Source: a virus (taxonomy: Duplodnaviria; Heunggongvirae; Uroviricota; Caudoviricetes). Taken from it: a DNA stretch of 21,577 bases. The notes under the pieces were generated by a model. The model made no database searches. It saw nothing but the letters and a program-made list of their open reading frames with translations, and was not told the DNA's origin. The stretch's first letter is position 1, and every line of letters starts with the position of its first letter. Below are positions 2,752-21,577 of this stretch, piece after piece. The stretch lies in the IMG/VR virus record IMGVR_UViG_3300044824_000100, positions 64,001 through 85,577 of that record. One strand, 5' to 3'. A program made the position numbers and the translations under genes.

Positions 2752-5700
2752 TGGCGTCACAAATCCAAATCCAGAGCTTCAATCAGTTTCTTGGTGCCAT
2801 GATACGTAGTATTATTGCCAATACCCCTCTGAATGATGTTAATCAGGGGTCTGTGCTTTTAACAATTCTCGAAGCTGCTGCTGCAAATGATTACGAGAAC
2901 TCGGCTGCTATCCTTTCACTACTTAACCTATTAAACATAGCTACAGTTTCTGGTACTGACCTTGATAACAGGGCTGCTGACTATGGTTTGACTCGTTATC
3001 CGGCTACGAAGGCCTCTGGCAATGTAAGCATCTTCAATACAAGCATAACTCTTCAGAGTACAAGTCTGTACATCCTTAAGCCACCACCTATTGCCAGCCA
3101 AACTGTACTATATGTGAACAATACCACTGGGTGGGCAGCGTCCGGAACTCTGTACATAGGCAGAGGCACCATATCATTTGAAGGGCCTATTCCGTACAGC
3201 TCTATCGTTGCGTACCCAACGTATTCACAGATTAATCTTTCGTCTGCCCTAAACAACAACCATCTCATCTCAGATACTGTTGTAAACGCCCAGGGTCAAC
3301 CGGATCGCGTCATTGCGGCAGGAACGGTCGTTAGCATACCTGCGAACAATCAGAACCCTCAGATTGATTATAGCACTCTGAGAGACGCCATTCTACCAGC
3401 CGGCGAAACTGAGGTTGACAACATAGCTGCAACGGCCGCAGTAGCAGGCTCCATCGGCAATGCCCCTAACAACACTATCACTCAGTTTGCAACATCTCCT
3501 TTCCCAGGGGCCAAGGTGTCCAATACATCAGCTTTCACTGGCGGAACAGACGTGGAAACTGACCAGGAACTTAGGGACAGAATCAACTCTTACACTAACA
3601 CCCTAGCTAGAGGCACAGAGGCAGCAATATTGGCAGCCGTTATCAACGTGTCGGATTCGAGTGACAACAAGCAGGTCGCCTCTGCCGTTATCACCGAACC
3701 ACCAAGCCTTGGCCAGCCGTCTATCCTATACATCGATGACGGTACCGGCTTCCAGCCTTCGTATGCGGGTCAATCCGTAGACACACTACTCACTGATGCT
3801 ACCGGCAAGGAACAGTTCTTGCAGCTAGCTAACTTTCCAGTAACTAGACCCCAAGTTGTCAATGCTGGTATTGGACCATTCGACCTAGTGCCGGGTTCAT
3901 CTCTGAGCGTCTCTGTCGATGGTCAAGAAGAGACTATATTTTTTACTACAGCGGACTTCGTCAATATATCTTCGGCTCAAGTAGGCGAAATCGTCGTTGC
4001 AATAAACAGCCAAGCAACATTGTTCAGCGCCAGGTTAACAAACAATTCAGCTAACATACTAATCTATCCAGACGCGTGGGATGCGGAGATAATTCAGGTT
4101 GCTGCATTGCTACCTACGGCAGATGCGTCGCTGTATGCAAACTCGGTACTACAGTTTCCAACGTCTCAATTTTCGTTCATCGCACTGTACCAGAATACGA
4201 CAAGGCTCAGAGAGAAGACCATAAGTGCAGAGCTTCAAACAGCTCCTTTCGGATCATGGAACATCACTAGTCCTGGCGATCTCATAATCTCGGTAGACAA
4301 TACACCTCAGCAGGATAGAACATTCAACTTGAGCAACTTCCCTGGCGCATCAACGTTTGCGTCGTTAACGCTTGCTGATTGGGTCACTGCATTCAACCAG
4401 CAATTTGCCGGCATTACGGCTACGGCTACTCCGGATCAAACTATGCAGATCAACTCTAATCAGAGTGGATCTGCATCAGCACTAAGCATCTTAGGTGGCA
4501 CAATGCTTGCCCAGTTATTTCCTACCCAGGCCAAGACTGCCGTTGGTCAGACTGGCCAGTTCATATTGAACAGACAGACAGGAAATCTAGAGATACTTAC
4601 AACTATCAATCCTGGCGATAACATAACAGCTGGTTCCGCGGACACTAAGGGCTTCATCATCTCTACGTCTACGCCTAGCGGTAACTACAATGTATCGACC
4701 GATGCGTTTGGGCGCGCTGCCCAACTCATCATAGTTGCTGATTCAACATACTGCACACAGCGTGCATTGAATGCGCCTGTAGGTTCGACCCTGACAATAA
4801 GCAATCCAAGTGGCAACGTGATGAGAATCATGTCGAACTTGCTAACTGCTTTCCCAGCTGTACTACCTGGCGATTTCGTCTACATGACGCAAAGAACCAG
4901 CGGATGGTTAGCACCTAACAATGCAGGTCTATTTAAGATAGTCGACAAGGGTTCTCACACTACTCCAGGTGTAGATACATACATCGATGTACTAAACGCA
5001 GGAGACCTAGCAACTCCAAGTATCACTCCTCAGGTTGTCACCATCGCAGACACCCTTGATATACAGGCTTTTACGACCGACGGGTATCCTCAGATCTGGT
5101 TGGGTACCTTCCTTACGAATCCACCAGTTTCGTCTCTGTCGAGCGTAGTCAATTCTATAAATGACAACATCATCAACGTTATAGCATCTATATACGAGTC
5201 TAACTCTATTAAGTTAACATCAACAACAGAGAACAACGGTTCTATAGCTATCCCTGTCGTAATGGGTAGCAACGCGCTAGCATTGTTTGCATCTACTCCG
5301 CTAGCATTGTTTGGCAATCCACCGTTGACAGCATCTATCGTGTCTAGCAAGAGTTTGCTAACGCACTTCAAGATTGACCCAACTACTAACAAGAATACAT
5401 GGTTGAATAGACAAGTATTCGATGACTCTAAGGGAACTCTCACGGCTAATGCAATCCCTGATGTGCCTCCATACTCAGGACCTTACAGTGAAGTATTGGA
5501 ATGCACCGGTGAACTCAACACGACACATGTTGACTTCGATAGCATTATCTCGTTCACAGACGGGAACAACAAAGACCAACTGAGAAGCATCGCAGCTTTT
5601 AACCCAGTTGGATATCCTTCTGACACTGTCGGCACGCAGGAAGCATTAGCCAGGACGAGTCTCGACAACGTGATCGGCGACCAGTTTGAAATTCTCAGAC

Positions 5701-8700
5701 CTCTGCAGCTCTCTGCTACGGACTCGATCGCTATGGTGATCGACGAGAATCCTCAGAACAATACTATCAATATTCCTCTGGCAAGAACTGGTCAGGTAAA
5801 CTCAGGCTCTGATTCGTTGTCGTTTCCCCCAACATCCACCGAGTTTTCTGCTAATGACTATGACAACCAAGCTGGTATCGACTTCTCTAATCAGAACGTC
5901 TGGGGCACAGCCATCAATGGCACCAACTTTAGTGACTATGCTGCATGGTTCAGAGCTAGAAACTGGTATGCTTCCGGCGGCGTTGGCTCCGGCAAGGGCG
6001 TCATGATAATGAGAGCTGACGAGTACGGTCCAGATGGGGACTTCTTGCGCTTCAACATGCAGTATCCTTCTGCACCTAACCAAGCTGCTACGACATCGTT
6101 TGTCAACACACCGTCGTTCACCACCTTTTCATATATATTCGGTTCGGGAGCGGCAAGAGCTACAGCACTGTCGACCGGTAATACAATCACGGTGAAGGGT
6201 CCATACCCTAATGCGTCTACCAACTTCCCTGATGGAGCTGTTTCTAGCGGAAACTACTACGACTACACATTCAGTGCTGGTAGTTTAACGTCTGTACAGA
6301 TCGGTGACATCATAAGCATAACTTCTCCTTCTGGCGTATCTAACTCTAACAGCGGTACATACAGCGTGCAGAATATTAGCGGGAATACCGTACGTGTGCT
6401 CAATGCTACTGCCTCTGTAACGTCGCCAGGATCACCGGAAGTCGACACGATCACCACTGTTGCCGATATTTTGGGCACTCCTACATCGTACGCGCTAACT
6501 GCCGTAGCAGATGTAAGCGGTTCACTCAATGGAACATATTTCTTGATCTACAATACAGCAGGATCCGTAGCGGTGTGGATCAATGAGGGTGGAACTGCTG
6601 CACCACCTTCCATCGGAGCCAATTCCTACCTCATGGTGGGCACGATCCTGTCTGGTGATTCTGCATCCACTGTTGCCACTAAGATAGTTCAAGCCATAAA
6701 TCAGAGCAGTTCATTTACAGCAACTGTAAGTGGTCCTACGATGATGATTACCAACGTTCAGAACGGCGCTTTGCCTAGTGCCACCACCGGTACATCTGGC
6801 TTTTCGATGTCGACCCCTTCTGCCCTAGCAACTGCTTCTGGCTTTGCTGTATTGGGCGCATCAACAGTTACCAACACAGGCTCGAGCGTTCTTACTGGGA
6901 ACCTTGGTCTATATCCTGGAACATCTATTACCGGCTTCCCACCAGGGACGTATTCCGGAACCGAATACATAGCAAACTCTGTAGCACAGACGGCGCAAGC
7001 CGATGCTCTATCCGCATATAACACATTCAACGCAATGAGTGCAACTTCAATCTCTGCAACCCTTGATAGTCAGACTCTTACTCCTGGCGTATACACAGAA
7101 TCTAGCGGCACTTTCAACTTGGCGGCATCTGGTCCAGGCACATTAACATTGAATGGCTCCGGTACATATGTATTCATCTGCTCAAGCACACTAAATACAG
7201 GCGCTGGCGGCGCAGCAACTATAACCCTTACTGGCGGTGCATCAGCAGCCAACGTCTACTGGATTGTTCGTTCATCGGCTACTATCAATGTAACAACTGG
7301 CAGCGTATTCAACGGTAACGTCCTAGCACAAGCAAGCATCACAGTTGGCGGGAGCACGGTGAACGGCACTCTAGCAGCTCTGACTGCTGCAGTTACTATT
7401 AGCACTGCTGCCACCATCACGGCTGCATCAATATCTGGTGGTTCTGGCGTAGTTGGCACCAACAATGATTCGTTGAGCGGTAAGTATTTCATCGTTTACG
7501 ACAACGGTGGTCCAGTATCTATCTGGTTTGACGTTGGTAATCAAGGTACTCCAGAGCCATACGACGGGTCATACAGGTCCATCAGAGTATTCAACTTGAG
7601 TGCAGGAGCTAACGCAACAACCGTAGCTCTGGCCATAGTGCAAGCTGTCACCGGTGATATATCGTTCATACCAACGTCGACTAGCAACGTTGTCACTCTC
7701 ACTAATAATTTTAATGGAAATGTTCCCGCTGGAAATGCTGGAACATCTGGGTTTACGGTCACCTCAACTCCTGGATCGCTGGCTAACCCAGAAGTGATCA
7801 ACAACCCAAACGGCGTAAACATGTTCCCTCTAGTGGGAACTACGACGGCTAGCATCTCTACGACCATAAATAATAGCTCGGTCATGTCTGCTACACCAGT
7901 TGGATCAAGTTCTCTAACCATCTCCCTAGCTACACAGGAAGAAACTTCTGCTACGCTGGCGTACGGATTTACTCCTGGACATAACTACATCAGCATGTAC
8001 GATGGTGCAAACTGGATTAAGTCATTTGAGAACCCAAATCCTAACTTCATAACCAAGACGCCATTTGTACTACAAGGCGCACAGCCATCTGTCTATTCCA
8101 TGGATACGGCTCCCAACTTTGATGTTCCAACCAATGGAGAGTTATTCAAACTTATTCCAACTACAGTACAGAACTTATATCACCAGTTTACACAGCCAGC
8201 ACTCTCCCAGCTCCCTATCGTTGCAACGGTTGAAATCACCGATGACAGGAGAAATGTACAAATTAAGTCCATGCAACTTGGTTCTTCCGGTGCAGTAGAA
8301 GTCCTTGGCGGTACAGGCAATCAGATCCAGATGTACCTGCAATCTGAATCTGAAATTGAAACAGACTCTAGCGGAAGTTACCTAACGGTTCAGGTCCAGG
8401 CATTCCCAGATACATTTAGTGTGGGCGATACTGTATTACTTGAGAACTCTACTGGCGTAGCGAGATTGAATCGCTTGCAAGCTTCAGATACAATTACAAC
8501 CCTGAACATCAATCCGATCACGAATGCCATCGAGTATGCGTACAACGCCAAAGTTACAGGCATCGCTTCCGGAACATCGTTTACCATCGTTGACGTATCT
8601 TCAACGTACTCTATCCCCGCTGGTTTCGTATGGAGATGGATTGCAACAGGAATCGGAGTAACATTCGCTGACGTTAATCCTGGCGATCTCATTTATGCGT

Positions 8701-10481
8701 TTGGCACTTTATCCGGTTGGGCTCAACAAAACCAAGCTAAACCATCAGGCGATGGCGCTGTGTCTGGACTTCCTATCATCGCTGTCAATGTAGGTTCTAA
8801 CTACGTAGATGTAGTCAATCCATTTGGTACGGCCATGTCAGCTACCACTGTCGGTAGCGGCACGGTTCAGATATGCCCAACTCCAGTTATTCAGTGGACT
8901 CCAGCACACGCAGCCTATGTAGATGTTGCGACCCTAAGCAGCGTTTCAGATGTCGTGACAGTCAACACAGAAACTGCACACTTCTTGAATACCGGCGACA
9001 GTATCAGTTTCCGTGATAGCACTAATGTCCCAGATGGTGTTTACACCGTAACTGTCACAAGCGCAACACAGTTTACGTTCAGTTTTTCTGGCCCTAACTT
9101 TACCGAGACACCAACGTTCGCATCGTTGATACAGTCTACTCTCACGCAATCACGTTATAGGTTGCAATCCCTCAAGTTCAATAGTTTGATGAGACTTAAC
9201 AGACAAAACGGTCAGTCTCCAAGCTTTATCGATGTGGGCGTTGCCGTAGATGACTACATAGTTTTCAGCGGAACAACGTTCTCTTCGAACAACAACGGGC
9301 GCTTCAGAGTACTTGCTGTAGACAACGACTCCATCATATTCATCAATCCATCTGGTACAGACCAGATAAACACGATCAGGCCAATGAACAACATGGGCTT
9401 CGACGCTGTGTTCACTGCCAACGCAAGCTACATCACTGGTCCTGTCGGAACATTCAAGTATGTGCAGGTCGGCGATTGGGTAAAAGGTCAAGCAGATCCA
9501 GACTCCTATTACTTACAAGTGTTGAGCATCAACAATGCTAATCCTGCACTTGCAACCCAAATCAACCTGGGTGGTAATTATGCTGGTGCAACAGGATCTG
9601 CAATAGGTGTTGTATACAGAGAAACAATAGATTATGACCAAGGCGTATTCCTAGAGAATGCTGGCGATATCGCCATCTATGAAGGCGATGCAGTATGTCA
9701 AAACGATACGCTATACGTGCAAGATCTTGTTGAGCCAGGATGGTTTAACGTTAACAACGTGGGCAGCTTCAATATCGTTCAATACGGTACAGAAGCTAAC
9801 TACTTGCCATTCGTAAGAGTAATCAACGCCGCTGGTGTTACGGCCAACACAGCTGACATATCTGTAAGCCCAGATGGCTTCTACATCATAGAAGGTCTCG
9901 CTAACAAGTTCTACACCATAAGGGAAGTAGTATACTCAGTATTGGACTCTACGAATAGCAATCTAAGGAATATCTACATCACTCCTTGGAGCAGAAGTTA
10001 TAAGTTTACTCCTGCTAATGCCTCCAGCATCACGCACTTGGGCAAAATCGGCTACAGTAATAATGTCGTTATTGGTATCGATGGATATACATACTATACG
10101 GGCTTGCTACAAAAGGTGCAACGCATCGTAGACGGCTTCGAGCCAGATGCTACTGATTATCCAGGGCAACGTGCAGTTGGAAGTGCTATCGAGACGCTAC
10201 CTCCTCTACCGTTTCAGGTTAACCTAGCACTTACAGTAATTACTAACGCTGGCGTGAACCTGGGAGATGTGTCTAATAACATCAAGTCAACTATCATTAA
10301 CTATGTAGAGGGTCTAAGCGTCGGTGCACCTATCGTGCTTTCGCAGATCATCGCTGACATTCAGCCAATCACTGGTGTCGCATCTGTAGTATTCACTAAC
10401 CCAGTACCAAGCACACAGAGCATTACACTGGCAAACAACGAGAAGGCTATCATCTCGGCTGACAATATTTCAATAGCGTAA
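2751..10481 (+). CDS. Giant baseplate J-like (T4 gp6 / P2 gpJ / XkdT family) wedge protein with a ~2100-aa multi-domain insertion including a DUF3494 ice-binding domain (2576 aa)
   Basis: J-like N-terminus ([59 protein letters not shown]). J-like C-terminus ([14 protein letters not shown]...[26 protein letters not shown]..ITGV). The ATG overlaps the HNH stop (TAATG). Confidence 0.9.
   Translation: [2576 protein letters not shown]
6522..7769 (+). repeat. Two ~100-aa homologous modules (6522-6815 and 7470-7769) flanking DUF3494 copy 1
   Basis: [16 protein letters not shown]...TVATKIVQA...ITN..NG..P....GTSGFSMST versus [16 protein letters not shown]...TVALAIVQA...LTN..NG..P....[10 protein letters not shown]. 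Confidence 0.75.
6825..7424 (+). other. DUF3494 ice-binding-like domain, copy 1 (aa ~1359-1558 of baseplate J)
   Basis: Canonical motifs: [35 protein letters not shown]; helix [65 protein letters not shown]. Confidence 0.9.
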
Positions 10482-13015: not shown

Positions 13016-16000
13016 ATGGCCGTACTTGGAAGACTACTAATTAGCTCTGCAGAGCGACTCGATCTCCCAGATCTGCTCAGCATAGATAGCTATTCTGCGG
13101 GCGACTGGAAGTACTTCATGGATACCCTTGTAGGCGAGGACACTCCCTACATCATCAAGGGCTTTGACGTAATCAATCCAGGGCTAGCTATTGGTACTCA
13201 AAACATCTCGATTAACATTGCCGACTCAGCTATGTACTATCCAGGCTCTGGGGCAGGTTCATTCTTTTATGGCCTACCAGCTGGTAGCCCAAGTGCACAA
13301 CCACTTGTCCCATCGCTCGTACTAAACGCGACAAACTATGTTTATCTAACATTTACCACTGCTGCTACAGCAGAGGACACTAGAGCATTCTGGGATCCAG
13401 ACGCTAACGGCGGACAGGGTGACGAGTTCACTCAGGAAGTGAACACTGAATCCGTAATCCAGGTTCAGGTGAATGTTTCAACAGGTTCATTCCCAGATAA
13501 TACAGTTCCAGTGGCCATCGTAGTTGTGGGCCCAACATCCATCTCTAGCATCGAAGATGCAAGACCGATGATGTTCAGACTAGGAACTGGTGGCATCGAT
13601 CCTAATCCTTCGAACAGATTCGCATGGCCAGCAATTCCTAGCACCATGTACGAGCAGATGGAGACTCCAATCACCATCACCTCGTTCTCGCAACCAAACC
13701 CTTTTCAGGGTGGCGACAAGAATATAACATCACTAAAGCAGTGGATGGATGCGGTTATGTCGCAGCTGGCAAATATTGCCGGCACGCAGTATTGGTATGA
13801 AGACAACGCTACCTTTAGCTTGGTGAGCTTGTTCAATGATTTGAACATCACCTTCTACTCTAAAGGAAAGTACGAACACAGTTCATCCGTCCCAGGCGAA
13901 CTCACTTTAACCGAAAACCTAGTTGTTAAGAGTGCTAATTCTCCACAGGACATAATCATTCAACCTGGCACTATAATAATCCCAGATGAATATGTCGCAT
14001 ATATTACGCTCAACAGCGCTCAACCAGTAAACTCTCTCAACCAACCAGTTCTCTGGACAAACGGCTCGCTGTATCTAAATACTCCTAATGGCTCTATCGG
14101 ATATTTCTCAGAGTTAAGCGTTGGCGACTGGGTTACTGCAGCAGGCGATCCTGGTAATTACGCTCTACAAGTAGAGCAGTTCTATAGCGGTACGAACGGT
14201 AGCGGATCTGTCACGACTGCTGCAAATGCTAAATCTGTCCTATTAGGCGGTACGTACCAAGGGTTAACCGGCAGTAAACTTGGTGCCTTCAATCAGGGCA
14301 TCTATGCAATCAGCGACATACAGATTCAACCTAGATCTAGCCCAGCAATCGCTGCGGCTGGTGGAAATTTCCTATGGTTGGTGCTACGCAGTGATACCAT
14401 CGAAGGAATCGGAGATATCCACGCTGTTACCGTATCTGGCACTCTCACTGTAACTGACGGCAGTGCCGCATCTCCAACTGGCACAGTTGCAGAAGTTATA
14501 GCGATGGGCCATGGCATGATCGATGGAGATCGTATCACTGTCACCGCTCCATTCGGACAGGTAGGAACGTACACAGTAGAAGTAATCGATGCTAACACGT
14601 TCTTCTTTAATACGACTAGTACCTCAACCGGCGCATTCACGGGTTTCTACGGGTTATGCACAACCGTAGCGCTAGGTAACGAATCAGCGAATAACGGATT
14701 TGAATCCGGCGAAACTGTTAACATCGCTGGAACCACAAACTATAACGGCGAGTACGTAATTAATTACAGATCCCCAACGCAGTTTGAGTTTCCATTTGGT
14801 TCTATTCCTACTCCACCGCCAGGAAGTCCAAATCTAGCAACCGCGGCAGAGTATGCTGTTCTAGCTGGTTCAGCTATTACAAATACTGGTTCAACAGTTA
14901 TCACTGGAAACCTTGGTTTATATCCTGGAACATCTGTGACTGGTTTTCCACCTGGCACGGTATCGGGAACGCAGGATATAGCTGAAGCAGCAGCTCAACA
15001 GGCTGAAGTGGACGCTACCAACGCCTACAATGCGATGCAGGCCTTGACTCCAACTATTATTCCTACAGAACTCGGTGGTCAAACATTGGCGCCTGGAATA
15101 TATGCAGCTTCGTCTGGCACATTTACACTGAATGGGACTTTGACGCTTTCTGGTACTTCTTCAAGTGTATATGTATTTCAAACAGCAAGCACGCTTATCA
15201 CCGGTGCATCTTCCACTCCAGTCGTAGCTCTTGGCAGTGTGTTACCAGCTAACATCTACTGGGCAGTCGGAAGTTCAGCCACTATTAACTCCGGTCACGC
15301 CGGCACGTTTCCTGGTAATATCGTTGCCCAAGCAAGCATCACGGATACCCTGGGCGGCACAGTAAACGGCAGATTAATTGCCTTGACGGGTGCGGTAACA
15401 TTCAGTGCTGCTGCTACATTAAACGCTCCATCGGTTGGCCCAACGCCTCCACCAACAGTTTTAGGACCTGCAGGAACGTTCGCTATATTAGCTGCTTCTG
15501 CAGTAACCAACAGCGGTTCAAGTGTGTTAACGGGAAATCTAGGCATCAGCCCAGGTACTTCTATTACCGGCTTCCCACCAGGAACATATACTGGAACAGA
15601 AGATATTGCTAACACCGCTTCGGCAGTAGCGCAAGCGGCAGCCTCTAGCGCGTATACGACGTTGTCAGGCATGACGTCGACAGCTATCCCATCCATCCTC
15701 GATGGTCAAACCCTTACTCCCGGCGTCTACCGTGAAGCCAGTGGAACCTTTAATCTAGCTGCTTCCGGAAACGGAACCTTGACGCTGAACGGCGCAGGAC
15801 AGTACGTGTTCATCTGCTCAAGCACCTTAACAACGGGCGCTGGCGGTATTCCTACTATTGCACTAACTAACGGTGCTCTAGCTGGTAACATCTACTGGGT
15901 TGTAGGTTCTTCTGCTACCATTAATTCTGGTAACGCTGGAACATTCCAAGGTAACATCATCGCGCAGGCTAGCATCACGGATACGTCTGGCGGTACTGTC

Positions 16001-17920
16001 AACGGAAGCATGATAGCTCTCAACGGTGCTGTAACCCTGAGTGCTGCTGCCAACGTAAATGCGGTAGCTGCAGTGAGTCCTCCGGTCCCACCCGAAAGTG
16101 CTGGTACGGCAACTCTTGCACGCCTCGATGTACGCTCAGAAGAAGGTATCACCAAAGTAGTTCAAGGTGAGACGATCGACATCGGCGAAGGTGATTCTGA
16201 CAACATTCAGAGATTCATCGGCATGAGTTCGCTAGCAGAGACCTATCCGATCTACTTTACTGGGCCATATAATACACTGTGGAATCTAGCTAACTACAAC
16301 GGCAACATCACAGACAACTTAACGCTTCGTACCAGTAAGCTCACTGCCATGATGGCAGATAAGGCGCAAGACAAGACTATTAAGTACTTGACTACTGCTA
16401 GCACAGCAGTAAACACTGCTAATGGATTGTCACAACAGATTACATTTTTGCCTTCAGCTAGTACGTTGACCATATTGCAACCCGGATCCCCAGGAAACGC
16501 AGTAATATCATTGCCAAACGTTTCCCCAGGTATTTCTCTGCTCGCTAACCAATCAGCTTATGTAGTTATAAACAGAAACGCAGCAAGTACACCAAGTATT
16601 GTTGTGGTAAATACAGCAGATGTGCCAATCGACGAGAATGTCATAGTTATCGCAAGTAGACTTGGTGATAACAGCATATGGTTATGGAATGGCGAGAATG
16701 TAATTGGTGCAGCGCCATTACAACCAACTAGTGGTGGATTGGTTAAAGTTAAATATTTTGATCCTATTAGTACATCGTTGCCCACGGGGTCTGTAATCGA
16801 AGACGGAGATACAGTTGTCGCAGGTGACACAGTACTTTTTGCCGCTCTTACCTCTGGAACCAATAACGCCGTCTATATGGCTAATGGAACTGGGAGTACC
16901 ATAGCCGGATGGACTCTACAAAATGCATTTAATGGAAACGCTTCGCCATCAAGCGCAGACACAGTCATCATTCAAGAAGGTAACTCATTCCAAGATCAGA
17001 TCGGCAAGTGGAACGATACTGCATGGGTATTCAATGATAAGGTTAGATATTTTAATATTGATACTGCCACGGGCGTATATAGTTACTTCGAACAGGATGC
17101 TATAGCAGTAAGCACATTAACGGATAACACTGCTAACGGCACAGTAACTAGCTTTAATTATCCTGGCAGTGAATTCATGATTGTTGATTTCTCTGTAAAC
17201 AGAGGATCAGCTAGGGACACGGGTACGATATGGGTTACCACGGATGGAATATCTACTGTAGAAGTTGCAACCGGTGGAGCATACATAAATAACAGCGGTG
17301 TGTCATTTAGCGGAAGCATATCTGGTGGCGTATTCAGTCTTCTATACACAACCACGTCTACTGGCAGTGATGCAACAATGAAGTTTATGATACGCAGATG
17401 GTCTAATACGAACGGCGGGCCTGGTGGCGTTCCTAGTTATAGCGGTGCAAGTAGTTCTGTTGTTGCGGCCGGACCAAACGAAGCGATACAATTTAACAAC
17501 GGCGGTTTAATCGACGGCGTAGCTAGTTTCTTAATAGATACAACGAATAGTTATCTAGGTACTGTTGGTGCTATAGTGCTTAACGGCTTAAGTCAAGGCA
17601 TATTATCCTCAGGAATAACATTAACAGATAACACTTCCACGCCTACTGCTATTTTTTCATACCCAGCAGCATCTTCTCCATTTGCTGTCGTAGAGTATTC
17701 CATTGCAAGAGGTGGTGATTCTAGTACGGGGAGACTCATGATCGCTAACAATGGCTCAGTTAGTTCAGAGAGCGATGACTTTGTTGAAACAGATCAATTC
17801 GCTCCAATAGGAGTCACATTTAGTACCGCTATAGTTGGATCCGACGTCGTAGTGTATTACATGACCAGCAGTACAGGCTTCAATGCCATATTTAAGTACT
17901 CTGGTAGGTCTTGGAGTTAA
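13016..17920 (+). CDS. Baseplate-attached fibre/appendage protein with tandem DUF3494 ice-binding domains (1634 aa)
   Basis: Occupies the gpH (fibre) position after J and I. T/S/G/A-rich beta modules. Two complete DUF3494 domains bounded by Pro-rich linkers. Two ~100-aa C-terminal repeats. Confidence 0.75.
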   Translation: MAVLGRLLISSAERLDLPDLLSIDSYSAGDWKYFMDTLVGEDTPYIIKGFDVINPGLAIGTQNISINIADSAMYYPGSGAGSFFYGLPAGSPSAQPLVPSLVLNATNYVYLTFTTAATAEDTRAFWDPDANGGQGDEFTQEVNTESVIQVQVNVSTGSFPDNTVPVAIVVVGPTSISSIEDARPMMFRLGTGGIDPNPSNRFAWPAIPSTMYEQMETPITITSFSQPNPFQGGDKNITSLKQWMDAVMSQLANIAGTQYWYEDNATFSLVSLFNDLNITFYSKGKYEHSSSVPGELTLTENLVVKSANSPQDIIIQPGTIIIPDEYVAYITLNSAQPVNSLNQPVLWTNGSLYLNTPNGSIGYFSELSVGDWVTAAGDPGNYALQVEQFYSGTNGSGSVTTAANAKSVLLGGTYQGLTGSKLGAFNQGIYAISDIQIQPRSSPAIAAAGGNFLWLVLRSDTIEGIGDIHAVTVSGTLTVTDGSAASPTGTVAEVIAMGHGMIDGDRITVTAPFGQVGTYTVEVIDANTFFFNTTSTSTGAFTGFYGLCTTVALGNESANNGFESGETVNIAGTTNYNGEYVINYRSPTQFEFPFGSIPTPPPGSPNLATAAEYAVLAGSAITNTGSTVITGNLGLYPGTSVTGFPPGTVSGTQDIAEAAAQQAEVDATNAYNAMQALTPTIIPTELGGQTLAPGIYAASSGTFTLNGTLTLSGTSSSVYVFQTASTLITGASSTPVVALGSVLPANIYWAVGSSATINSGHAGTFPGNIVAQASITDTLGGTVNGRLIALTGAVTFSAAATLNAPSVGPTPPPTVLGPAGTFAILAASAVTNSGSSVLTGNLGISPGTSITGFPPGTYTGTEDIANTASAVAQAAASSAYTTLSGMTSTAIPSILDGQTLTPGVYREASGTFNLAASGNGTLTLNGAGQYVFICSSTLTTGAGGIPTIALTNGALAGNIYWVVGSSATINSGNAGTFQGNIIAQASITDTSGGTVNGSMIALNGAVTLSAAANVNAVAAVSPPVPPESAGTATLARLDVRSEEGITKVVQGETIDIGEGDSDNIQRFIGMSSLAETYPIYFTGPYNTLWNLANYNGNITDNLTLRTSKLTAMMADKAQDKTIKYLTTASTAVNTANGLSQQITFLPSASTLTILQPGSPGNAVISLPNVSPGISLLANQSAYVVINRNAASTPSIVVVNTADVPIDENVIVIASRLGDNSIWLWNGENVIGAAPLQPTSGGLVKVKYFDPISTSLPTGSVIEDGDTVVAGDTVLFAALTSGTNNAVYMANGTGSTIAGWTLQNAFNGNASPSSADTVIIQEGNSFQDQIGKWNDTAWVFNDKVRYFNIDTATGVYSYFEQDAIAVSTLTDNTANGTVTSFNYPGSEFMIVDFSVNRGSARDTGTIWVTTDGISTVEVATGGAYINNSGVSFSGSISGGVFSLLYTTTSTGSDATMKFMIRRWSNTNGGPGGVPSYSGASSSVVAAGPNEAIQFNNGGLIDGVASFLIDTTNSYLGTVGAIVLNGLSQGILSSGITLTDNTSTPTAIFSYPAASSPFAVVEYSIARGGDSSTGRLMIANNGSVSSESDDFVETDQFAPIGVTFSTAIVGSDVVVYYMTSSTGFNAIFKYSGRSWS
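14834..15427 (+). other. DUF3494 ice-binding-like domain, copy 2 (aa ~607-804)
   Basis: YAVLAGSAITNTGSTVITGNLGLYPGTSVTGFPPG; AAQQAEVDATNAYN; ELGGQTLAPGIY; VYVFQTASTL; NIYWAVGSSATI; TVNGRLIALTGAVT. Confidence 0.92.
15461..16063 (+). other. DUF3494 ice-binding-like domain, copy 3 (aa ~816-1016)
   Basis: FAILAASAVTNSGSSVLTGNLGISPGTSITGFPPG; AVAQAAASSAY; LDGQTLTPGVY; NIYWVVGSSATI; FQGNIIAQASIT; TVNGSMIALNGAVTL. Confidence 0.92.
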
Positions 17921-17955: not shown

Positions 17956-20376
17956 ATGGCCGTAAATGCACTAAATTTTGGTAGTAAGGTCGTATTCTTA
18001 AATGGATTCGCTGTTACGTTGCCTATTGCTGCCTCTAATCCAGCTTCAGCAGTGGCCGGTGACTTTTATTACAACTCAACATCTAACACTATTTACTACT
18101 ATAATGGCAGTGCTTGGGTTCAACTAGCAACTGGCGGAACTGCTTTAACGAGTGTTTCTGTTGCTTCTGCGAACGGTTTAGCTGGTACATCTTCTGGTGG
18201 TACGACTCCCACTCTAACACTTTCAACGACGATCACTGGTATACTACAAGGCAACGGAACGGCAATCAGTGCAGCTACGACTACCGGCACTGGCAGCGTC
18301 GTACTTGCAACTAGTCCAACTCTAATTACTCCTGCATTAGGGACTCCTAGTGCATTAGTAGGAACAAATATAACTGGTACTGCTTCTGGCCTTACAGCAG
18401 GAACAGTGACTACTAATGCTAACCTGACAGGTGATGTGACGTCAGTTGGTAATGCCACAACTTTAGCTACCGTCAATTCTAACGTTGGCAGTTTCGGCAG
18501 CAGTACGTCTATCCCAAGCCTTACTGTCAATGCGAAAGGTTTAATCACCGCAGTATCTAGCAACGTAGTGATTGCCCCAGCTGGCACGTTATCGGGTACA
18601 GTATTAAATTCTAGCGTTGTAACTTCTTCTTTAACTTCTTTGGGTATTCAGGCTCAGGCCCTAAACATGGGTAGCAACCAGATCAATAATCTGGCAACTC
18701 CGTCCGTTTCAAGTGATGCTGCAACCAAGGGATATGTGGACTCTTTAGTTAGTGGCCTAACTTGGCAGGGTCCCGCTAAAGCTTACGCTGACTCCAACAT
18801 ACCTCTTACTGGTGGCGCGACACTAACAATCGATGGATACTCTGTTCAAAACGGTGACCTTGTTATCCTTGGAAACCAAACTATTGCCTCTCAAAATGGT
18901 GAGTATACCGCTAGCGGAATCGGTACGGCATACACACTAACGCCAAACGGACTTCCTTCCGCAGCAGGTGATGCTTGGTTGATCCTTGACGGTGCAGTAT
19001 ACGGAGATAGCGCCTTCGTAGCTAACGCCGCCGTTCCAGCAGCTACGTTCACAGAATTTGCTGGTCCAACCGCTTACACATTCAATGCTCCGCTATCTTT
19101 ATCAGGACGTTCGATAAGTATTACTGAAGCTACTACTTCAACCAATGGTTATCTGAGTTCAACGGATTGGAACACCTTTAACAATAAGCAACCAGCTGGT
19201 AGCTACATCACTGCTCTAACCGGCGATGCCACTGCTTCTGGTCCAGGTTCTGCAGTTCTGACTCTGGCCACTGTCAATTCTAATGTAGGATCATTTGGTT
19301 CGTCTACAGCAATACCATCATTCACAGTTAATGCAAAGGGTTTAATCACCGCTGCATCAACCAGCGTTGTTACTGCTCCAGCAGGAACTCTAACTGGAAC
19401 TACACTCGCTGCAAATGTTGTCAGCTCATCGTTGACGTCTGTTGGAACCATTACAAGCGGTACATGGACAGGAACAACTATTGCCATAGCAAATGGCGGC
19501 ACTGGACAGACAAGTGCATCGGCAGCATTCAATGCTCTCTCGCCAATCACAACCACTGGCGACATGATATATAGTACAAGTGGCGCCACTAACTCACGTC
19601 TACCTATTGGGTCTACAAATCAAGTTTTAACTGTTATTGCTGGTGTTCCCACGTGGGCATCTCCTGCAACCTCAGGAACTGTAACATCGGTGAGTGTTGT
19701 TTCTGCTAATGGATTCAATGGTTCTGTAGCAACTGCTACGTCAACGCCAGCTATTACGATCTCTACCACCGTTAACAGTCCGGTGCTTGCTGGCAACGGA
19801 ACGGCAATCAGTGCAGCTACGACTACCGGCACTGGCAGCACGGTTGTTCTTAACGCATCTCCCACACTTACCGGCACGCTCACTGCAGCAGCTGCTAATT
19901 TTTCTGGGGTAATTGGTGCTAACGGCGGCATTACATCTACTGGGACATTGCTAATAAACGTAAACGGCGGAGCAAGCGCATTACAAATTGAAGCCTTAAA
20001 TTTCCAAAGATCAACCAATGGTACTAACTTTGTTACCGAAACTTATGTTGACTCTACAACATTAATAGATAACTCTGGTCCTACTGCTGTCGCCGCCTTT
20101 CAATTTGCTGTTTCAGTGTTCTCTGGAATTGAGATCACATATGTCATTGAATCTGCTGACGGTGCCGCCGATAGGCGTGTTGGAACCATCCGCGTAACAG
20201 CTAACAGTATCGGAACCATTACTCCTTCTATCTCTGATATGTACACTGAATCTGCAGATTGCGGAGTTACATGGAGTGCTACTAACTCTGGTGGAACTAT
20301 TTCAGTCAACTACACAACTTCCAATCAAGGTGCTGCTAGGACTATGAGGGCTGATGCTAAGTTTTTTAGAGCATAA
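17956..20376 (+). CDS. Tail-fibre-like protein with internal repeats (806 aa)
   Basis: Good SD. Very T/S/G/A-rich. Fibre motifs GDFYYNSTSNTIYYYNGSAW, DAATKGYVD, TVNAKGLITA (x2) and IAIANGGTG. C-terminal ~100-aa domain shared with the previous gene. Confidence 0.8.
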   Translation: MAVNALNFGSKVVFLNGFAVTLPIAASNPASAVAGDFYYNSTSNTIYYYNGSAWVQLATGGTALTSVSVASANGLAGTSSGGTTPTLTLSTTITGILQGNGTAISAATTTGTGSVVLATSPTLITPALGTPSALVGTNITGTASGLTAGTVTTNANLTGDVTSVGNATTLATVNSNVGSFGSSTSIPSLTVNAKGLITAVSSNVVIAPAGTLSGTVLNSSVVTSSLTSLGIQAQALNMGSNQINNLATPSVSSDAATKGYVDSLVSGLTWQGPAKAYADSNIPLTGGATLTIDGYSVQNGDLVILGNQTIASQNGEYTASGIGTAYTLTPNGLPSAAGDAWLILDGAVYGDSAFVANAAVPAATFTEFAGPTAYTFNAPLSLSGRSISITEATTSTNGYLSSTDWNTFNNKQPAGSYITALTGDATASGPGSAVLTLATVNSNVGSFGSSTAIPSFTVNAKGLITAASTSVVTAPAGTLTGTTLAANVVSSSLTSVGTITSGTWTGTTIAIANGGTGQTSASAAFNALSPITTTGDMIYSTSGATNSRLPIGSTNQVLTVIAGVPTWASPATSGTVTSVSVVSANGFNGSVATATSTPAITISTTVNSPVLAGNGTAISAATTTGTGSTVVLNASPTLTGTLTAAAANFSGVIGANGGITSTGTLLINVNGGASALQIEALNFQRSTNGTNFVTETYVDSTTLIDNSGPTAVAAFQFAVSVFSGIEITYVIESADGAADRRVGTIRVTANSIGTITPSISDMYTESADCGVTWSATNSGGTISVNYTTSNQGAARTMRADAKFFRA
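18250..19839 (+). repeat. Perfect 48-bp direct repeat (18250-18297 and 19792-19839) encoding GNGTAISAATTTGTGS
   Basis: GGCAACGGAACGGCAATCAGTGCAGCTACGACTACCGGCACTGGCAGC is identical at both sites, in frame, 1542 bp apart. Confidence 0.95.
18424..19446 (+). repeat. Diverged ~75-aa repeat (18424-18645 and 19216-19446)
   Basis: LTGD...TLATVNSNVGSFGSST.IPS.TVNAKGLITA.S..V..APAGTL.GT.L...VV.SSLTS.G occurs twice. Synonymous positions are largely different. Confidence 0.9.
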
Positions 20377-20418: not shown

Positions 20419-21577
20419 ATGTCACTGAATTCACTTAAGGTCCGCAATGCGATTACCTTAAAACCAAATAGTACACCAACAAATCCAGAAAATGGCGATA
20501 TCTATTACGATGCTACTGCTAACGTATTCTATTTCTATCAAAATGGCGCGTTTATCTCCATACCTGTTTCTACTTCATCTCCTACATTTGATAACCTAAC
20601 ATTAACTGGATACGAGGCAAGACAAGAACTCGTCGATACTACTACAACTGGTAGTGCTGCAGTTCTTAATAGTGCTGCTGCTAGTTTGGTTGTCTTAACT
20701 AACGTTTCATTAACATCATTGAGCACCATCCCAGCTGGTGCTAATGGTCAACTACTTATCTTGAACAATCAAACCGGTGCTGCGATTACAGTTAATAACG
20801 ACGCTGGGTCTCCCACTGCAAATCAGATCACGACAGGTACGGGATCAAACTTAAGCTTGGCAAATACTGCATCGATCCTGATGGCTTACGATAACCACTC
20901 TAGCAAGTGGATTGTCGTTGGTGGTTCAGGTTCTGGTGGTGGCGGTGGAGTAAGTTCAGTAACCGCGTCCACTCCATTAGCTAGTTCTGGTGGAACAACG
21001 CCCAATATAAGTTTAACTGGTACGATTCCAGTCGCAAATGGCGGTACTGGTCTAACTTCTGTGGGAACCGCCGGTCAGCTCTTAGAGAGCACCGGAACAG
21101 GCTTACAGTTTGTAAATCAATCGGTGGTGGGGACTATTGTTGCTCAATATGGGGTAACCACAGGAGCGACAACTGCTGCTGGAGTTCCTATTAACTTCGA
21201 TACCAAAATCGTAGATACTAATAATGCCGTAACAACGGGTGTAGGTACTTGGAAGTTCACCGCTCCTGTTGCCGGTTTTTACATGGTATCTAATGTAATT
21301 TCCACCTCCACTAATCAAGATATTCTTTTATATAAAAATGGTGTGAGTCAAAACTTTATTCAAGATAGTTTAACCGGAGAAGTTATTTCTTCTGGAACTA
21401 GTGGTATCCAATTGAATCAAGGAGATACTTTCTATCTATCGTTTAATTCAGGCGGAGGAACGACAGAAGGTGGAACAGCTCCAAGGTTTCTCTGTAGCAT
21501 ACTCATAACTCTAGTCACCGGCAATGTAACCGCCAGCGCCCCCACAGTCACTACTCTCCTCTCCGGATCTGGAACCT
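20419..21577 (+). CDS. 3'-truncated tail-fibre-like protein with a C1q/TNF-like domain (>=386 aa; absent from the ORF track because no stop lies in the window)
   Basis: Hand translation is open to the window end: MSLNSLKVRNAITLKPNSTPTNPENGDIYYDATANVFYFYQNG...GGSGSGGGGGVSSVTASTPLASSGGTTP...IPVANGGTGLTSVGTAGQLL...PINFDTKIVDTNNAVTTGVGTWKFTAPVAGFY...LYKNG...IQLNQGDTFYL...TTLLSGSGT. Confidence 0.85.
   Translation, partial: MSLNSLKVRNAITLKPNSTPTNPENGDIYYDATANVFYFYQNGAFISIPVSTSSPTFDNLTLTGYEARQELVDTTTTGSAAVLNSAAASLVVLTNVSLTSLSTIPAGANGQLLILNNQTGAAITVNNDAGSPTANQITTGTGSNLSLANTASILMAYDNHSSKWIVVGGSGSGGGGGVSSVTASTPLASSGGTTPNISLTGTIPVANGGTGLTSVGTAGQLLESTGTGLQFVNQSVVGTIVAQYGVTTGATTAAGVPINFDTKIVDTNNAVTTGVGTWKFTAPVAGFYMVSNVISTSTNQDILLYKNGVSQNFIQDSLTGEVISSGTSGIQLNQGDTFYLSFNSGGGTTEGGTAPRFLCSILITLVTGNVTASAPTVTTLLSGSGT
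21130..21516 (+). other. C1q/TNF-like beta-sandwich domain
   Basis: I.FD.....N......G...FTAPVAG.Y ... LYKNG ... SG...I.L..GD...L is the gC1q-like pattern seen in phage fibres and bacterial surface proteins. Confidence 0.7.

What the first reader, a model, noticed from the sequence alone, without database searches (positions are those of the whole stretch)
14804..16099. Tandem DUF3494 pair inserted into a loop on proline-rich stalks
The pair is bounded and separated by Pro-rich linkers: IPTPPPGSPN, APSVGPTPPPTV and AAVSPPVPPES. It interrupts the end of a barrel module (...NYNGEYVINYRSPTQFEFPFGS // PESAGTATL...). Pro-rich linkers are otherwise rare in these proteins. Inference: semi-rigid spacers project the two binding domains outward, as in tandem-DUF3494 ice adhesins of bacteria.
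Basis: partly seen in the sequence, partly recalled or inferred. Interest (0 to 1): 0.8.

Follow-up and report, generated by a model that had tools for sequence, protein, structure and literature searches.

The report
Ice-binding-fold pair looped from phage fibre
An uncultured large phage from peat has two complete copies of the fold that cold-adapted microbes use to grip ice spliced into a surface loop of a tail-fibre protein on short proline-rich tethers; close relatives carry none, one or two copies, and whether the domains bind ice or something else is untested.

Summary
Residues 597-1028 of a 1634-aa protein (window 13016-17920) hold two PF11999/DUF3494 domains. They are bounded and separated by the only three proline-rich segments in the protein.

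The prediction that orthologues lack the insert holds. About 100 of 120 orthologues join '...FEFPxGxx' to '(T/P)E(S/T)xGTATLAR' with about 6 residues. One clade carries one or two domains, and one member has lost them again.

The site is the loop before the last strand of the second of two FCCH-type beta-barrels.

The pair is not a simple local duplication. D1 and D2 have different nearest relatives, and D2 groups with the DUF3494 domain of baseplate J.

The same phage also carries DUF3494 in its tail sheath. Seven near-complete relatives have none anywhere.

The face that binds ice in the solved homologue AnpIBP is Thr/Ser-rich here and more conserved than average.

My reading is an outward-displayed, copy-variable adhesion cassette that is part of a tail-wide display. 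The ligand is unresolved: ice about 0.4, hydrated polysaccharide about 0.3.

"Stalks" overstates 10-12-residue tethers, and "tandem-DUF3494 ice adhesins" is not an established class.

The scan has already noted DUF3494 on phage tails in at least five other genomes. I found no paper describing it.

The parts
13016..17920 (+). Gene for the 1634-aa carrier protein (P0001). It is a baseplate-attached, fibre-like protein and the third gene downstream of baseplate J.
   Evidence: ORF. Gene order J - 832 aa - this gene. The same order occurs in Myxococcus phage Mx1, whose homologue matches aa 13-261. More than 400 orthologues have variable C-terminal modules.
14447..14665 (+). FCCH-type beta-barrel 1 (aa 478-550).
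   Evidence: In the model of the insert-free orthologue, the equivalent residues align with the FCCH domain of Uba6/Uba1: Z 8.0-8.7, rmsd 1.6-1.8 A, 64-66 residues. Foldseek probability is 1.0. pLDDT is 84-90 in the model of this protein.
14669..14803 (+). FCCH-type beta-barrel 2, strands before the insert (aa 552-596, ending FEFPFGS).
   Evidence: hhalign of barrel 1 against barrel 2: probability 96%, E 2.3e-9, 50 columns. Sub-threshold Pfam E1_FCCH hit on the same stretch of orthologue P0114, 26.2 bits. Strand pattern.
14804..14833 (+). Linker 1, IPTPPPGSPN (aa 597-606).
   Evidence: 5 Pro in 10. pLDDT below 50 at aa 599-604. Conserved as (I/LV)P(T/S)PPxGSP in 16 of 17 insert-bearing orthologues.
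14834..15424 (+). DUF3494 domain D1 (aa 607-803).
   Evidence: PF11999. phmmer E 1.1e-36 against EfcIBP 6EIO. pLDDT mostly above 90, beta-solenoid plus long helix. Groups with D1 of P0007/13/14, support 99/98.
15425..15460 (+). Linker 2, APSVGPTPPPTV (aa 804-815).
   Evidence: 5 Pro in 12. pLDDT 69-81. The pattern GPxPxP is conserved in two-domain orthologues and resembles the C-terminal linker VGPPAPE of one-domain orthologues.
15461..16066 (+). DUF3494 domain D2 (aa 816-1017).
   Evidence: PF11999. 62-63% identical to D1, 66% to this phage's own J domain and 77% to a relative's J domain. Groups with D2 of P0010/12/18, support 100/96.
16067..16099 (+). Linker 3, AAVSPPVPPES (aa 1018-1028).
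   Evidence: 4 Pro in 11. pLDDT below 50 at aa 1020-1024. Conserved as PPxPPE(S/T) or GPPAPE(S/T).
16100..16129 (+). Last strand of barrel 2 (AGTATLARLD, aa 1029-1038).
   Evidence: In the insert-free orthologue the strand ATLA forms 11 residues after the preceding strand. pLDDT is 78-93 there and collapses below 50 just after it. The strand order parallels barrel 1.
6825..7427 (+). Paralogous DUF3494 domain in the 2576-aa baseplate J protein (aa 1359-1559). It belongs to the same tail-wide display.
   Evidence: PF11999, E 3.4e-34, together with Baseplate_J. It lies between two homologous ~100-aa modules. It has no Pro-rich linkers.

Best explanation
The segment is a derived display cassette whose copy number varies between relatives.

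Anatomy. Two DUF3494 (IBP-1 fold) beta-solenoids are looped out of the loop between the last two strands of the second FCCH-type beta-barrel. The carrier is a baseplate-attached fibre protein of an uncultured Mx1-like phage from peat. Related complete genomes are 150-177 kb. Each junction is a short, conserved proline-rich tether of 10-12 residues.

Geometry (inferred). In this fold the first and last coils stack next to each other. Each solenoid is therefore probably tethered by one end and points away from the fibre shaft, leaving its long faces free.

Proposed mechanism (inferred, not shown). The pair acts with the DUF3494 domains in the tail sheath and baseplate J as a multivalent adhesin. 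Binding would be through the conserved Thr/Ser-rich b-face, to an extended, repetitive, hydrated surface.

Ligand (undetermined). I rank ice first (about 0.4). Host or matrix polysaccharide comes second (about 0.3).

Shown here: the architecture, the insertion, the fold, the conservation of the face, and the cassette exchange.
For: - Insertion. About 100 of 120 orthologues have ~6 residues at the site. A clade has ~224 (one domain) or ~434-441 (two domains).
- On the backbone tree all insert-bearers form one clade (support 100). One insert-free member is nested inside it, and one- and two-domain forms are intermingled, giving 7 state changes.
- Two more distant orthologues carry a DUF3494 at the same site.
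- Barrel and loop.
- Fold. pLDDT is above 90 for both domains. The best Foldseek hit is the tandem IBPv 5UYT, and the next 30 hits are all ice-binding proteins.
- D1 aligns over nearly its full length with EfcIBP (E 1.1e-36) and AnpIBP.
- The b-face segments mapped in AnpIBP (PMC7277481) correspond here to outward positions that are 85% Thr/Ser/Ala/Gly. These positions are more conserved than average (entropy 0.78 against 1.10, permutation p 0.009).
- The equivalents of AnpIBP S153 and T156 are Ser in 34 of 34 and Thr in 33 of 34 phage domains.
- Cassette exchange. D1 and D2 have different nearest relatives, and D2 sits nearest the J domains, though that grouping is not strongly supported (81/93).
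- Tail-wide display. DUF3494 also occurs in the sheath and in J. Where the contig covers those genes, every related record with DUF3494 in the fibre also has it in J and the sheath. None of 7 near-complete relatives has any.
- 78 IMG/VR loci carry the domain: 20 in sheaths, 12 in J proteins, 9 in fibre-like proteins and 39 in other proteins.
- The termini lie at the same end of the fold: the coil order is beta1-beta6-...-beta2.
Against: - No binding was measured and no virion structure exists.
- The b-face mapping rests on one phmmer alignment and on the out/in pattern of AnpIBP.
- Inward-pointing positions of these strands are equally conserved (entropy 0.76), so part of the conservation is structural.
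- A Thr/Ser array on one face is a general feature of the family and does not identify the ligand (PMC7783341).
- That the carrier is a fibre rests on gene order and modularity. It matches no PHROG family.
Confidence: 0.6

Rival explanations
1. One reading: the pair is an ice adhesin. The selected function is to bind ice crystals. That could hold the virion at ice surfaces or veins where hosts concentrate, or protect the long tail during freeze-thaw. Two domains would raise avidity or cover different ice planes, as in IBPv. This is one answer to the ligand question left open in the best explanation.
For: - Ice binding is the only activity measured in the characterised DUF3494 proteins I read about here.
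- The closest solved relatives are active ice-binding proteins (6EIO, 7BWX, 5UYT).
- Residues equivalent to AnpIBP S153 and T156 are conserved. Replacing either with Tyr cuts AnpIBP activity to 17%.
- In IBPv the two domains cooperate.
- The source is peat.
- The nearest cellular homologues come from bog, palsa and SPRUCE peat MAGs.
- Display on sheath, baseplate and fibre together fits a non-specific surface better than a specific receptor.
Against: [quoted passage not shown]
- An earlier scan note reports the same display in a rhizosphere soil phage.
- No ice assay has been done.
- I could not obtain habitat or temperature data for insert-bearing versus insert-free relatives.
Confidence: 0.4
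2. The domains bind hydrated polysaccharide, such as host capsule or EPS or the biofilm or peat matrix. This would give weak, reversible, multivalent adherence that raises host encounter, in the manner proposed for Ig-like capsid decorations. This is the second answer to the ligand question.
For: - The nearest cellular homologues are signal-peptide + DUF3494 + PEP-CTERM surface proteins of Acidobacteriota, Verrucomicrobiota and others.
- The family is found in non-freezing habitats.
- Copy-number change and allele swapping are typical of host-interaction modules.
- The carrier has other swappable adhesin-type modules in relatives: collagen, C1q, beta-propeller.
Against: As far as I know, no DUF3494 domain has been shown to bind a carbohydrate. 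Phages usually deal with capsules through enzymatic tailspikes.
Confidence: 0.3
3. The pair is a specific receptor-binding domain that sets host range.
For: It lies in a fibre-like protein of the baseplate module. It varies among close relatives.
Against: - The insert is in the middle of the protein, about 600 residues from the C-terminal modules, which vary most among orthologues.
- The same domain also decorates the sheath and baseplate J. The sheath is not placed to meet a receptor.
- The putative binding face is conserved rather than hypervariable.
Confidence: 0.12
4. The domains are structural decoration or spacers with no ligand. A stable beta-solenoid would have been picked up as bulk that stiffens or shields the tail.
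For: Insert-free relatives and a secondary loss (P0015) show the cassette is dispensable for assembly. Extra sheath domains of unknown role are common in large phages (my own knowledge).
Against: Outward-pointing b-face residues are conserved across paralogues that are only 52-66% identical overall. The domain is retained in three proteins at once in every record where the genes are covered.
Confidence: 0.12
5. The segment is an assembly chimera or mis-join that brings a bacterial DUF3494 gene into a phage ORF.
For: None beyond the metagenomic origin of the contig.
Against: - The frame is open over 1634 codons.
- 16 further orthologues from several sources carry inserts at the same site.
- An independent study holds the junction at 99% or more identity.
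Confidence: 0.01

Closest known systems
IBPv, two-domain antifreeze protein of Flavobacteriaceae strain 3519-10 (PDB 5UYT; PMC5673226)
   Same: It has two DUF3494 beta-solenoids in one chain and is the best Foldseek match (E 2.5e-13). Its two domains are diverged paralogues (44% identical; 62% here) and cooperate in ice binding.
   Different: IBPv is a secreted soluble protein, not an insert in a structural protein, and the word 'linker' does not occur in the paper's text. In the superposition with the model the rmsd is 24 A over 463 columns, so the relative arrangement of the two domains is not shared or not defined.
EfcIBP (6EIO) and AnpIBP (7BWX), single-domain DUF3494 ice-binding proteins without the capping region
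   Same: They are the closest solved sequences (E 1.1e-36 and 4.6e-28; 41% and 38% identity in Foldseek). The phage domains share the b-face Thr/Ser rows, including the equivalents of S153 and T156.
   Different: They are free secreted proteins of a bacterium and a fungus from Antarctica with measured activity. The phage domains are embedded in virion proteins and untested.
PEP-CTERM-anchored DUF3494 proteins of soil and peat bacteria (for example the Nostoc-associated nIBP, PMC7783341; loci L064 and L066 here)
   Same: They are the nearest cellular relatives found (42-48% identity). The domain is displayed on a biological surface rather than released.
   Different: They have one domain, a signal peptide and a C-terminal PEP-CTERM anchor. 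They fall outside the main phage clade (support 99/99; only 11 cellular sequences were sampled).
'Ice-binding-like' (PF11999) genes reported on Arctic marine viral contigs as auxiliary metabolic genes (PMC11515562)
   Same: The same Pfam family on viral sequence, interpreted as cold adaptation.
   Different: Those genes are read as cryoprotection for the host. Here the domains are built into the sheath, baseplate and fibre, so they belong to the particle. The phage named in that paper, S-SKS1, has no PF11999 match in a six-frame search.
FCCH beta-barrel of ubiquitin E1 enzymes (Uba1, Uba6) and the beta-barrel domain of phage endosialidases (3JU4, 4HIZ)
   Same: This is the fold of the two barrels that carry the insert: Z 8.0-8.7 and 7.0-7.3, Foldseek probability 1.0.
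   Different: This is a resemblance of fold only. No functional link is implied, and no DUF3494 insert is known in those proteins.

Membership tests
DUF3494 / IBP-1 fold (Pfam PF11999 Ice_binding) | Match to the Pfam profile above the gathering score | tested here: met
   259.3 bits against a cut-off of 28.7. Two stretches, each nearly full length (domain limits).
DUF3494 / IBP-1 fold (Pfam PF11999 Ice_binding) | Beta-solenoid with a long alpha-helix alongside | tested here: met
   AlphaFold2 model: pLDDT above 90 for both domains, one 18-residue helix in each. The 31 Foldseek matches with E <= 0.001 are all DUF3494 ice-binding proteins.
DUF3494 / IBP-1 fold (Pfam PF11999 Ice_binding) | Flat b-face lined with small and hydroxyl residues, including positions shown by mutation to matter (AnpIBP S153, T156) | tested here: met
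   By alignment only. Outward positions are 85% T/S/A/G. The S153 equivalent is Ser in 34 of 34 domains and the T156 equivalent is Thr in 33 of 34. Flatness itself was not measured.
DUF3494 / IBP-1 fold (Pfam PF11999 Ice_binding) | Ice binding (thermal hysteresis, recrystallisation inhibition, ice affinity) | not testable with these tools
   Needs recombinant protein.
Multi-domain secreted antifreeze protein (IBPv type) | Two DUF3494 domains in one polypeptide | tested here: met
Multi-domain secreted antifreeze protein (IBPv type) | Free secreted protein with a signal peptide | tested here: not met
   The pair is internal (aa 607-1017 of 1634). The N-terminus is a conserved structural domain shared with Mx1.
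Bacterial ice adhesin (large surface protein that ties a cell to ice) | Anchored to a cell surface through extender domains, with a demonstrated ice-binding domain | tested here: not met
   The carrier is a phage baseplate-module protein. Ice binding is untested. To my knowledge the best-known ice adhesin, MpIBP, uses a different ice-binding fold.
E1_FCCH-type beta-barrel (Pfam PF16190) | Pfam profile match | tested here: inconclusive
   No hit in this protein. Sub-threshold hits in orthologues: barrel 1 in P0067 at 24.7 bits and barrel 2 in P0114 at 26.2 bits, against a cut-off of 29.5.
E1_FCCH-type beta-barrel (Pfam PF16190) | Six-stranded small barrel that superposes on solved FCCH domains | tested here: met
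   Barrel 1 of the insert-free orthologue: Z 8.0-8.7, rmsd 1.6-1.8 A, 64-66 residues. Barrel 2 is homologous to barrel 1 (hhalign 96%, E 2.3e-9).
Phage tail fibre / baseplate-attached appendage | Encoded in the baseplate module next to baseplate J, with a conserved N-terminal part and swappable distal modules | tested here: met
   Gene order. N-terminal 596 aa are 50-87% identical across the 120 listed orthologues of >400, while the part beyond ~200 aa after the junction varies and carries collagen, C1q and beta-propeller modules.
Phage tail fibre / baseplate-attached appendage | Match to a curated tail-fibre family | tested here: inconclusive
   No PHROG family and no Pfam family other than PF11999. 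The protein atlas gives only weak leads to viral proteins and to DUF6519 (scores 0.77-0.87).
Viral auxiliary metabolic gene 'ice-binding-like' | Stand-alone gene expressed in the host for host cryoprotection | tested here: not met
   All five PF11999 matches on this contig lie inside the sheath, baseplate J and the fibre-like protein.

The most novel reading that the evidence does not exclude
The tail of this phage clade is a true ice-binding machine. Functional ice-binding domains would be displayed on the sheath, the baseplate and, as a tethered pair, the fibres, so the virion itself adheres to or shapes ice. This would be the first ice-binding virus particle and a particle-level adaptation of soil phages to seasonal freezing. 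The change between one and two domains would tune avidity or ice-plane coverage.
Probability: 0.3. Interest if true: 0.85.

Novelty: new variant of a known kind. Interest (0 to 1): 0.6.

Why it matters
DUF3494 is the most widespread ice-binding fold, yet what it does outside icy habitats is an open question.

Here the domain is part of a virus particle, which needs no metabolism and no secretion. Its role must therefore be direct contact with something outside the particle.

Nature has also supplied the controls. There are close relatives with none, one or two domains at the same loop, and whole genomes with or without the tail-wide display.

That makes two questions directly testable with a few recombinant fragments and with metagenome metadata. 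First, do these domains bind ice or another hydrated surface? Second, does tandem display raise avidity?

If they bind ice, phage survival and host encounter in frozen soils would have a structural basis that has not been described. If they bind something else, that would be, to my knowledge, the first non-ice ligand for the family.

The loop-and-tether arrangement in a small barrel is also a compact natural scaffold for displaying folded domains on a phage fibre.

Tried and rejected
I could not read the neighbourhoods or sample records of the orthologues returned by the protein search. I used IMG/VR loci instead.
- Model coordinates are not returned. I could not measure whether the b-faces are exposed, how far the termini are apart, or whether the last strand pairs with the barrel. 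I relied on secondary structure, pLDDT and the homology between the two barrels.
- PHROGs gave nothing for the carrier protein, nor for ten short proteins carrying a DUF3494 domain 65-73% identical to D2.
- tblastn of the whole protein and of D2 alone against 50,697 GenBank phage records found no DUF3494 match. Only the Mx1 N-terminal match appeared. This covers that collection at that sensitivity only.
- An apparent 481-residue insert in orthologue P0114 and a 363-residue one in P0105 were artefacts of taking the best BLAST segment. The P0114 junction is contiguous.
- I looked for recent gene conversion between D1, D2 and the J domain. DNA identity is only about 70%, and there are no long identical stretches.
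- The joint reported by read laying in run X1 (14959 to 15809) is a cross-match to a paralogous domain on another contig, not a deletion variant.
- The linkers share no DNA repeat that could explain duplication by slippage.
- Run X2 covers only parts of the gene. The uncovered parts say nothing.
- Literature searches for DUF3494 or ice-binding together with phage, virus, tail fibre, peat or virion found no description of virion-borne DUF3494.
- Habitat comparison of insert-bearing against insert-free relatives could not be done, because no sample metadata are available through these tools.
Full report

Yes. The window has a run of large genes, all on the + strand. The finding lies in the ORF at 13016-17920, a 1634-aa protein. 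Coordinates 14804-16099 are exactly residues 597-1028.

Pfam gives two nearly full-length Ice_binding (PF11999, DUF3494) stretches. The E-value is 3.2e-77 at 259 bits, against a cut-off of 28.7. I set the domains at aa 607-803 (D1) and 816-1017 (D2).

The three quoted linkers are at aa 597-606, 804-815 and 1018-1028. They hold 5 of 10, 5 of 12 and 4 of 11 prolines, in a protein that is 5.3% proline overall. They are the only 10-residue windows with four or more prolines in this protein. Only one other such place exists in the seven large ORFs of the window.

A second, independent peat study holds fragments 99% or more identical. One of them spans the barrel-linker-D1 junction.

**2. What carries the insert?**

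The window is the last 21.6 kb of an 85.6-kb IMG/VR virus contig estimated at 50% complete. The run search labels its source a peat metagenome.

The gene order is as follows:
- baseplate-like proteins;
- a 2576-aa baseplate J protein, which has one DUF3494 domain;
- an 832-aa protein;
- the carrier;
- an 806-aa fibre-like protein;
- a protein with a C1q domain.

Residues 13-261 of the carrier match a hypothetical protein of Myxococcus phage Mx1. In Mx1 that gene sits in the same place, downstream of baseplate J and before the endolysin.

The carrier has more than 400 relatives in metagenomes. Most are about 1200 aa long and sit on contigs of up to 178 kb. Among them the first 596 residues, and about 200 residues after the junction, are conserved. 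The distal part varies and can carry collagen, C1q, beta-propeller or further barrel modules.

I therefore read the carrier as a baseplate-attached fibre. That is an inference from gene order and modularity; no curated fibre family matches it.

**3. Is it an insertion?**

I anchored the N- and C-terminal parts by BLAST. About 100 of the 120 listed orthologues have about 6 residues where this protein has 432. Seven have about 224 (one domain) and nine, this one included, have 432-443 (two domains).

The alignment shows the predicted contiguous junction, for example ...QVEFPIGAS-PES-SGTATLARMDVR....

I built a tree from the backbone with the insert removed:
- All insert-bearing proteins form one clade (support 100).
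- The single insert-free member, P0015, is nested inside it. That indicates a secondary, clean loss.
- One- and two-domain forms are intermingled. Parsimony needs 7 state changes.

Two more distant orthologues (46-47% identity) carry a DUF3494 at the same structural site.

The region is therefore derived and variable, not ancestral and invariant.

**4. Is the site a loop of a barrel?**

I modelled residues 480-870 of an insert-free orthologue with 67 aligned sequences (mean pLDDT 83).
- Its first 67 residues superpose on the FCCH domain of ubiquitin E1 enzymes: Z 8.0-8.7, rmsd 1.6-1.8 A, 64-66 residues.
- Foldseek also finds the beta-barrel of phage endosialidases.
- The next module is a homologous repeat of the first: hhalign probability 96%, E 2.3e-9.
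- That second module gives a sub-threshold E1_FCCH hit in orthologue P0114.

In the second barrel the strand order matches the first. The last strand (ATLA) forms 11 residues after the preceding one with good confidence, and confidence collapses just after it.

The DUF3494 pair sits inside that 11-residue loop. The claim that it interrupts the end of a barrel module is supported. I could not check strand pairing in the model itself, because coordinates are not returned.

**5. The domains**

I modelled residues 480-1110 of this protein. Both domains have pLDDT mostly above 90, and each has the long helix typical of the fold. Linkers 1 and 3 fall below 50, and linker 2 is at 69-81. pTM is 0.51, so no fixed arrangement between the domains is predicted.

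The best Foldseek match is the tandem antifreeze protein IBPv (5UYT). The next 30 matches are all DUF3494 ice-binding proteins.

By sequence the closest solved proteins are EfcIBP (E 1.1e-36) and AnpIBP. Both belong to the group without the capping region.

The AnpIBP paper lists the b-face segments and shows that S153Y and T156Y each cut activity to 17% (PMC7277481). I transferred these segments through the alignment. The outward positions in 34 phage domains are 85% Thr, Ser, Ala or Gly. They are more conserved than average columns (entropy 0.78 against 1.10, permutation p 0.009). The S153 equivalent is always Ser, and the T156 equivalent is Thr in 33 of 34.

Inward positions of the same strands are equally conserved, so part of this signal is structural.

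**6. The linkers**

Linker 1 is conserved as (I/LV)P(T/S)PPxGSP in 16 of 17 insert-bearing orthologues. Linker 3 is conserved as PPxPPE(S/T) or GPPAPE(S/T). Linker 2 follows the pattern GPxPxP and resembles the C-terminal linker of one-domain forms. That suggests the second domain was added within that linker.

The DUF3494 inserts in baseplate J and the sheath have no proline-rich linkers. In J the domain lies between two homologous ~100-aa modules, like a bead on a string.

The proline-rich tethers are thus specific to the loop insertion in the fibre. At 10-12 residues they are tethers rather than stalks.

In this fold the coils stack in the order beta1-beta6-beta5-beta4-beta3-beta2. The two chain ends of a domain therefore lie at the same end of the solenoid. 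From this I infer that each solenoid is held by one end near the barrel and points away from it. This is inference, not a result.

**7. How the pair arose**

D1 and D2 are 62-63% identical in protein and about 70% in DNA.

In a tree of 47 domains, most phage domains form one clade apart from 11 cellular homologues (support 99/99). Three phage domains group with the cellular ones. Within the phage clade:
- This protein's D1 groups with D1 of three orthologues (99/98). It does not group with D1 of the one-domain forms, nor with D1 of the orthologues that have the closest D2.
- Its D2 groups with D2 of three other orthologues (100/96).
- D2 lies nearest the baseplate J domains (81/93, not strongly supported).

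The pair is therefore a mosaic built by cassette exchange, not a local tandem duplication. The sample of cellular sequences is small, so the origin of the phage clade is not settled.

**8. The wider picture**

The tail sheath of the same phage lies outside the window. It carries a DUF3494 domain and a degenerate second copy.

Among 25 related virus records, six have PF11999. Those six have it in the fibre, in J, and in the sheath wherever the contig reaches those genes. None of seven near-complete relatives (153-177 kb) has it anywhere.

A scan of IMG/VR with the domain alignment found 78 loci. The carriers are 20 sheaths, 12 J proteins, 9 fibre-like proteins and 39 other, mostly short, proteins.

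The nearest cellular homologues (42-48% identity) come from peat and soil MAGs. The two I read are signal peptide + DUF3494 + PEP-CTERM surface proteins.

**9. What it most likely does**

Shown: a folded, conserved DUF3494 pair is displayed from a loop of a fibre. It is gained, lost and exchanged among close relatives, and it accompanies the same domain on the sheath and baseplate.

Inferred: it is an adhesion module that works through the conserved b-face, and many copies act together.

The ligand is open.
- For ice: it is the only activity measured in the characterised DUF3494 proteins I read about here; the domains are close to active proteins; the critical residues are conserved; IBPv shows cooperation between two domains; and the habitat is peat.
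- Display on the sheath argues against a specific receptor.

I put ice at about 0.4, hydrated polysaccharide at about 0.3, and a specific receptor and plain structural decoration at about 0.12 each.

**10. Comparison with what is known, and novelty**

The domains are members of DUF3494 by profile, fold and face composition. Ice binding could not be tested.

The protein is not an IBPv-type secreted antifreeze protein, not a bacterial ice adhesin, and not a stand-alone viral auxiliary gene.

PF11999 genes have been reported on Arctic marine viral contigs, where they were read as host cryoprotection (PMC11515562). The phage named in that paper, S-SKS1, shows no PF11999 match in a six-frame search, and neither does Mx1.

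No GenBank phage record matched the domain by tblastn. I found no paper that links DUF3494 to phage structural proteins.

Within this scan the tail-wide DUF3494 display has already been noted in at least five other genomes and on this window.

What this report adds:
- the loop-insertion site in an FCCH-type barrel;
- the conserved proline-rich tethers;
- the 0/1/2 copy polymorphism with a secondary loss;
- the mosaic origin of the pair;
- the conservation of the b-face.

I class it as a new variant of a known kind, with interest 0.6.

Noticed in passing
G000:C1:50381-53212 (outside the window; L063:4382-7213): The 943-aa tail sheath (phrog_279) carries a PF11999 domain at aa 149-315 and a degenerate second copy after it. 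Related sheaths in IMG/VR have two full copies 4-5 residues apart, without proline-rich linkers.
   Followed up: partly
window 2751-10481 (baseplate J, aa 1258-1356 and 1574-1674): The DUF3494 domain of baseplate J lies between two homologous ~100-aa modules (39% identity, E 1e-18). It is a bead on a string there, not a loop insert.
   Followed up: partly
window 16700-17920 and 19750-20376: The C-terminus of the carrier has two related modules (40% over 47 aa, E 7e-7). Both resemble the C-terminal domain of the next fibre-like protein (E 1e-8 and 8e-4). This looks like a shared distal module.
   Followed up: partly
window 18250-18297 and 19792-19839: An exact 48-nt direct repeat inside the 806-aa fibre-like gene. 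It encodes the same 16 residues twice, 1542 nt apart.
   Followed up: no
window 20419-21576: The last ORF, which is open at the contig end, has a C1q domain (PF00386, E 2.3e-6). It is probably another fibre tip.
   Followed up: no
IMG/VR loci L090-L162 (39 of 78 loci): Many proteins of roughly 310-600 aa (two over 1000 aa) on viral contigs carry a DUF3494 domain 42-73% identical to D2. They have no counterpart on this contig and, for the ten tested, no PHROG match. One cluster member is labelled VgrG by its source.
   Followed up: partly
proteins P0019 and P0021, and locus L050: Three phage DUF3494 domains group with cellular homologues rather than with the phage clade. P0019 lacks the proline-rich linker 1. 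This suggests separate captures at the same site.
   Followed up: no
proteins P0126, P0133, P0130 (from the representative search): Some proteins carry three to seven DUF3494 domains in tandem. One of 3189 aa combines them with InlB B-repeat and Ig domains. Large multi-DUF3494 surface proteins therefore exist outside phages.
   Followed up: no
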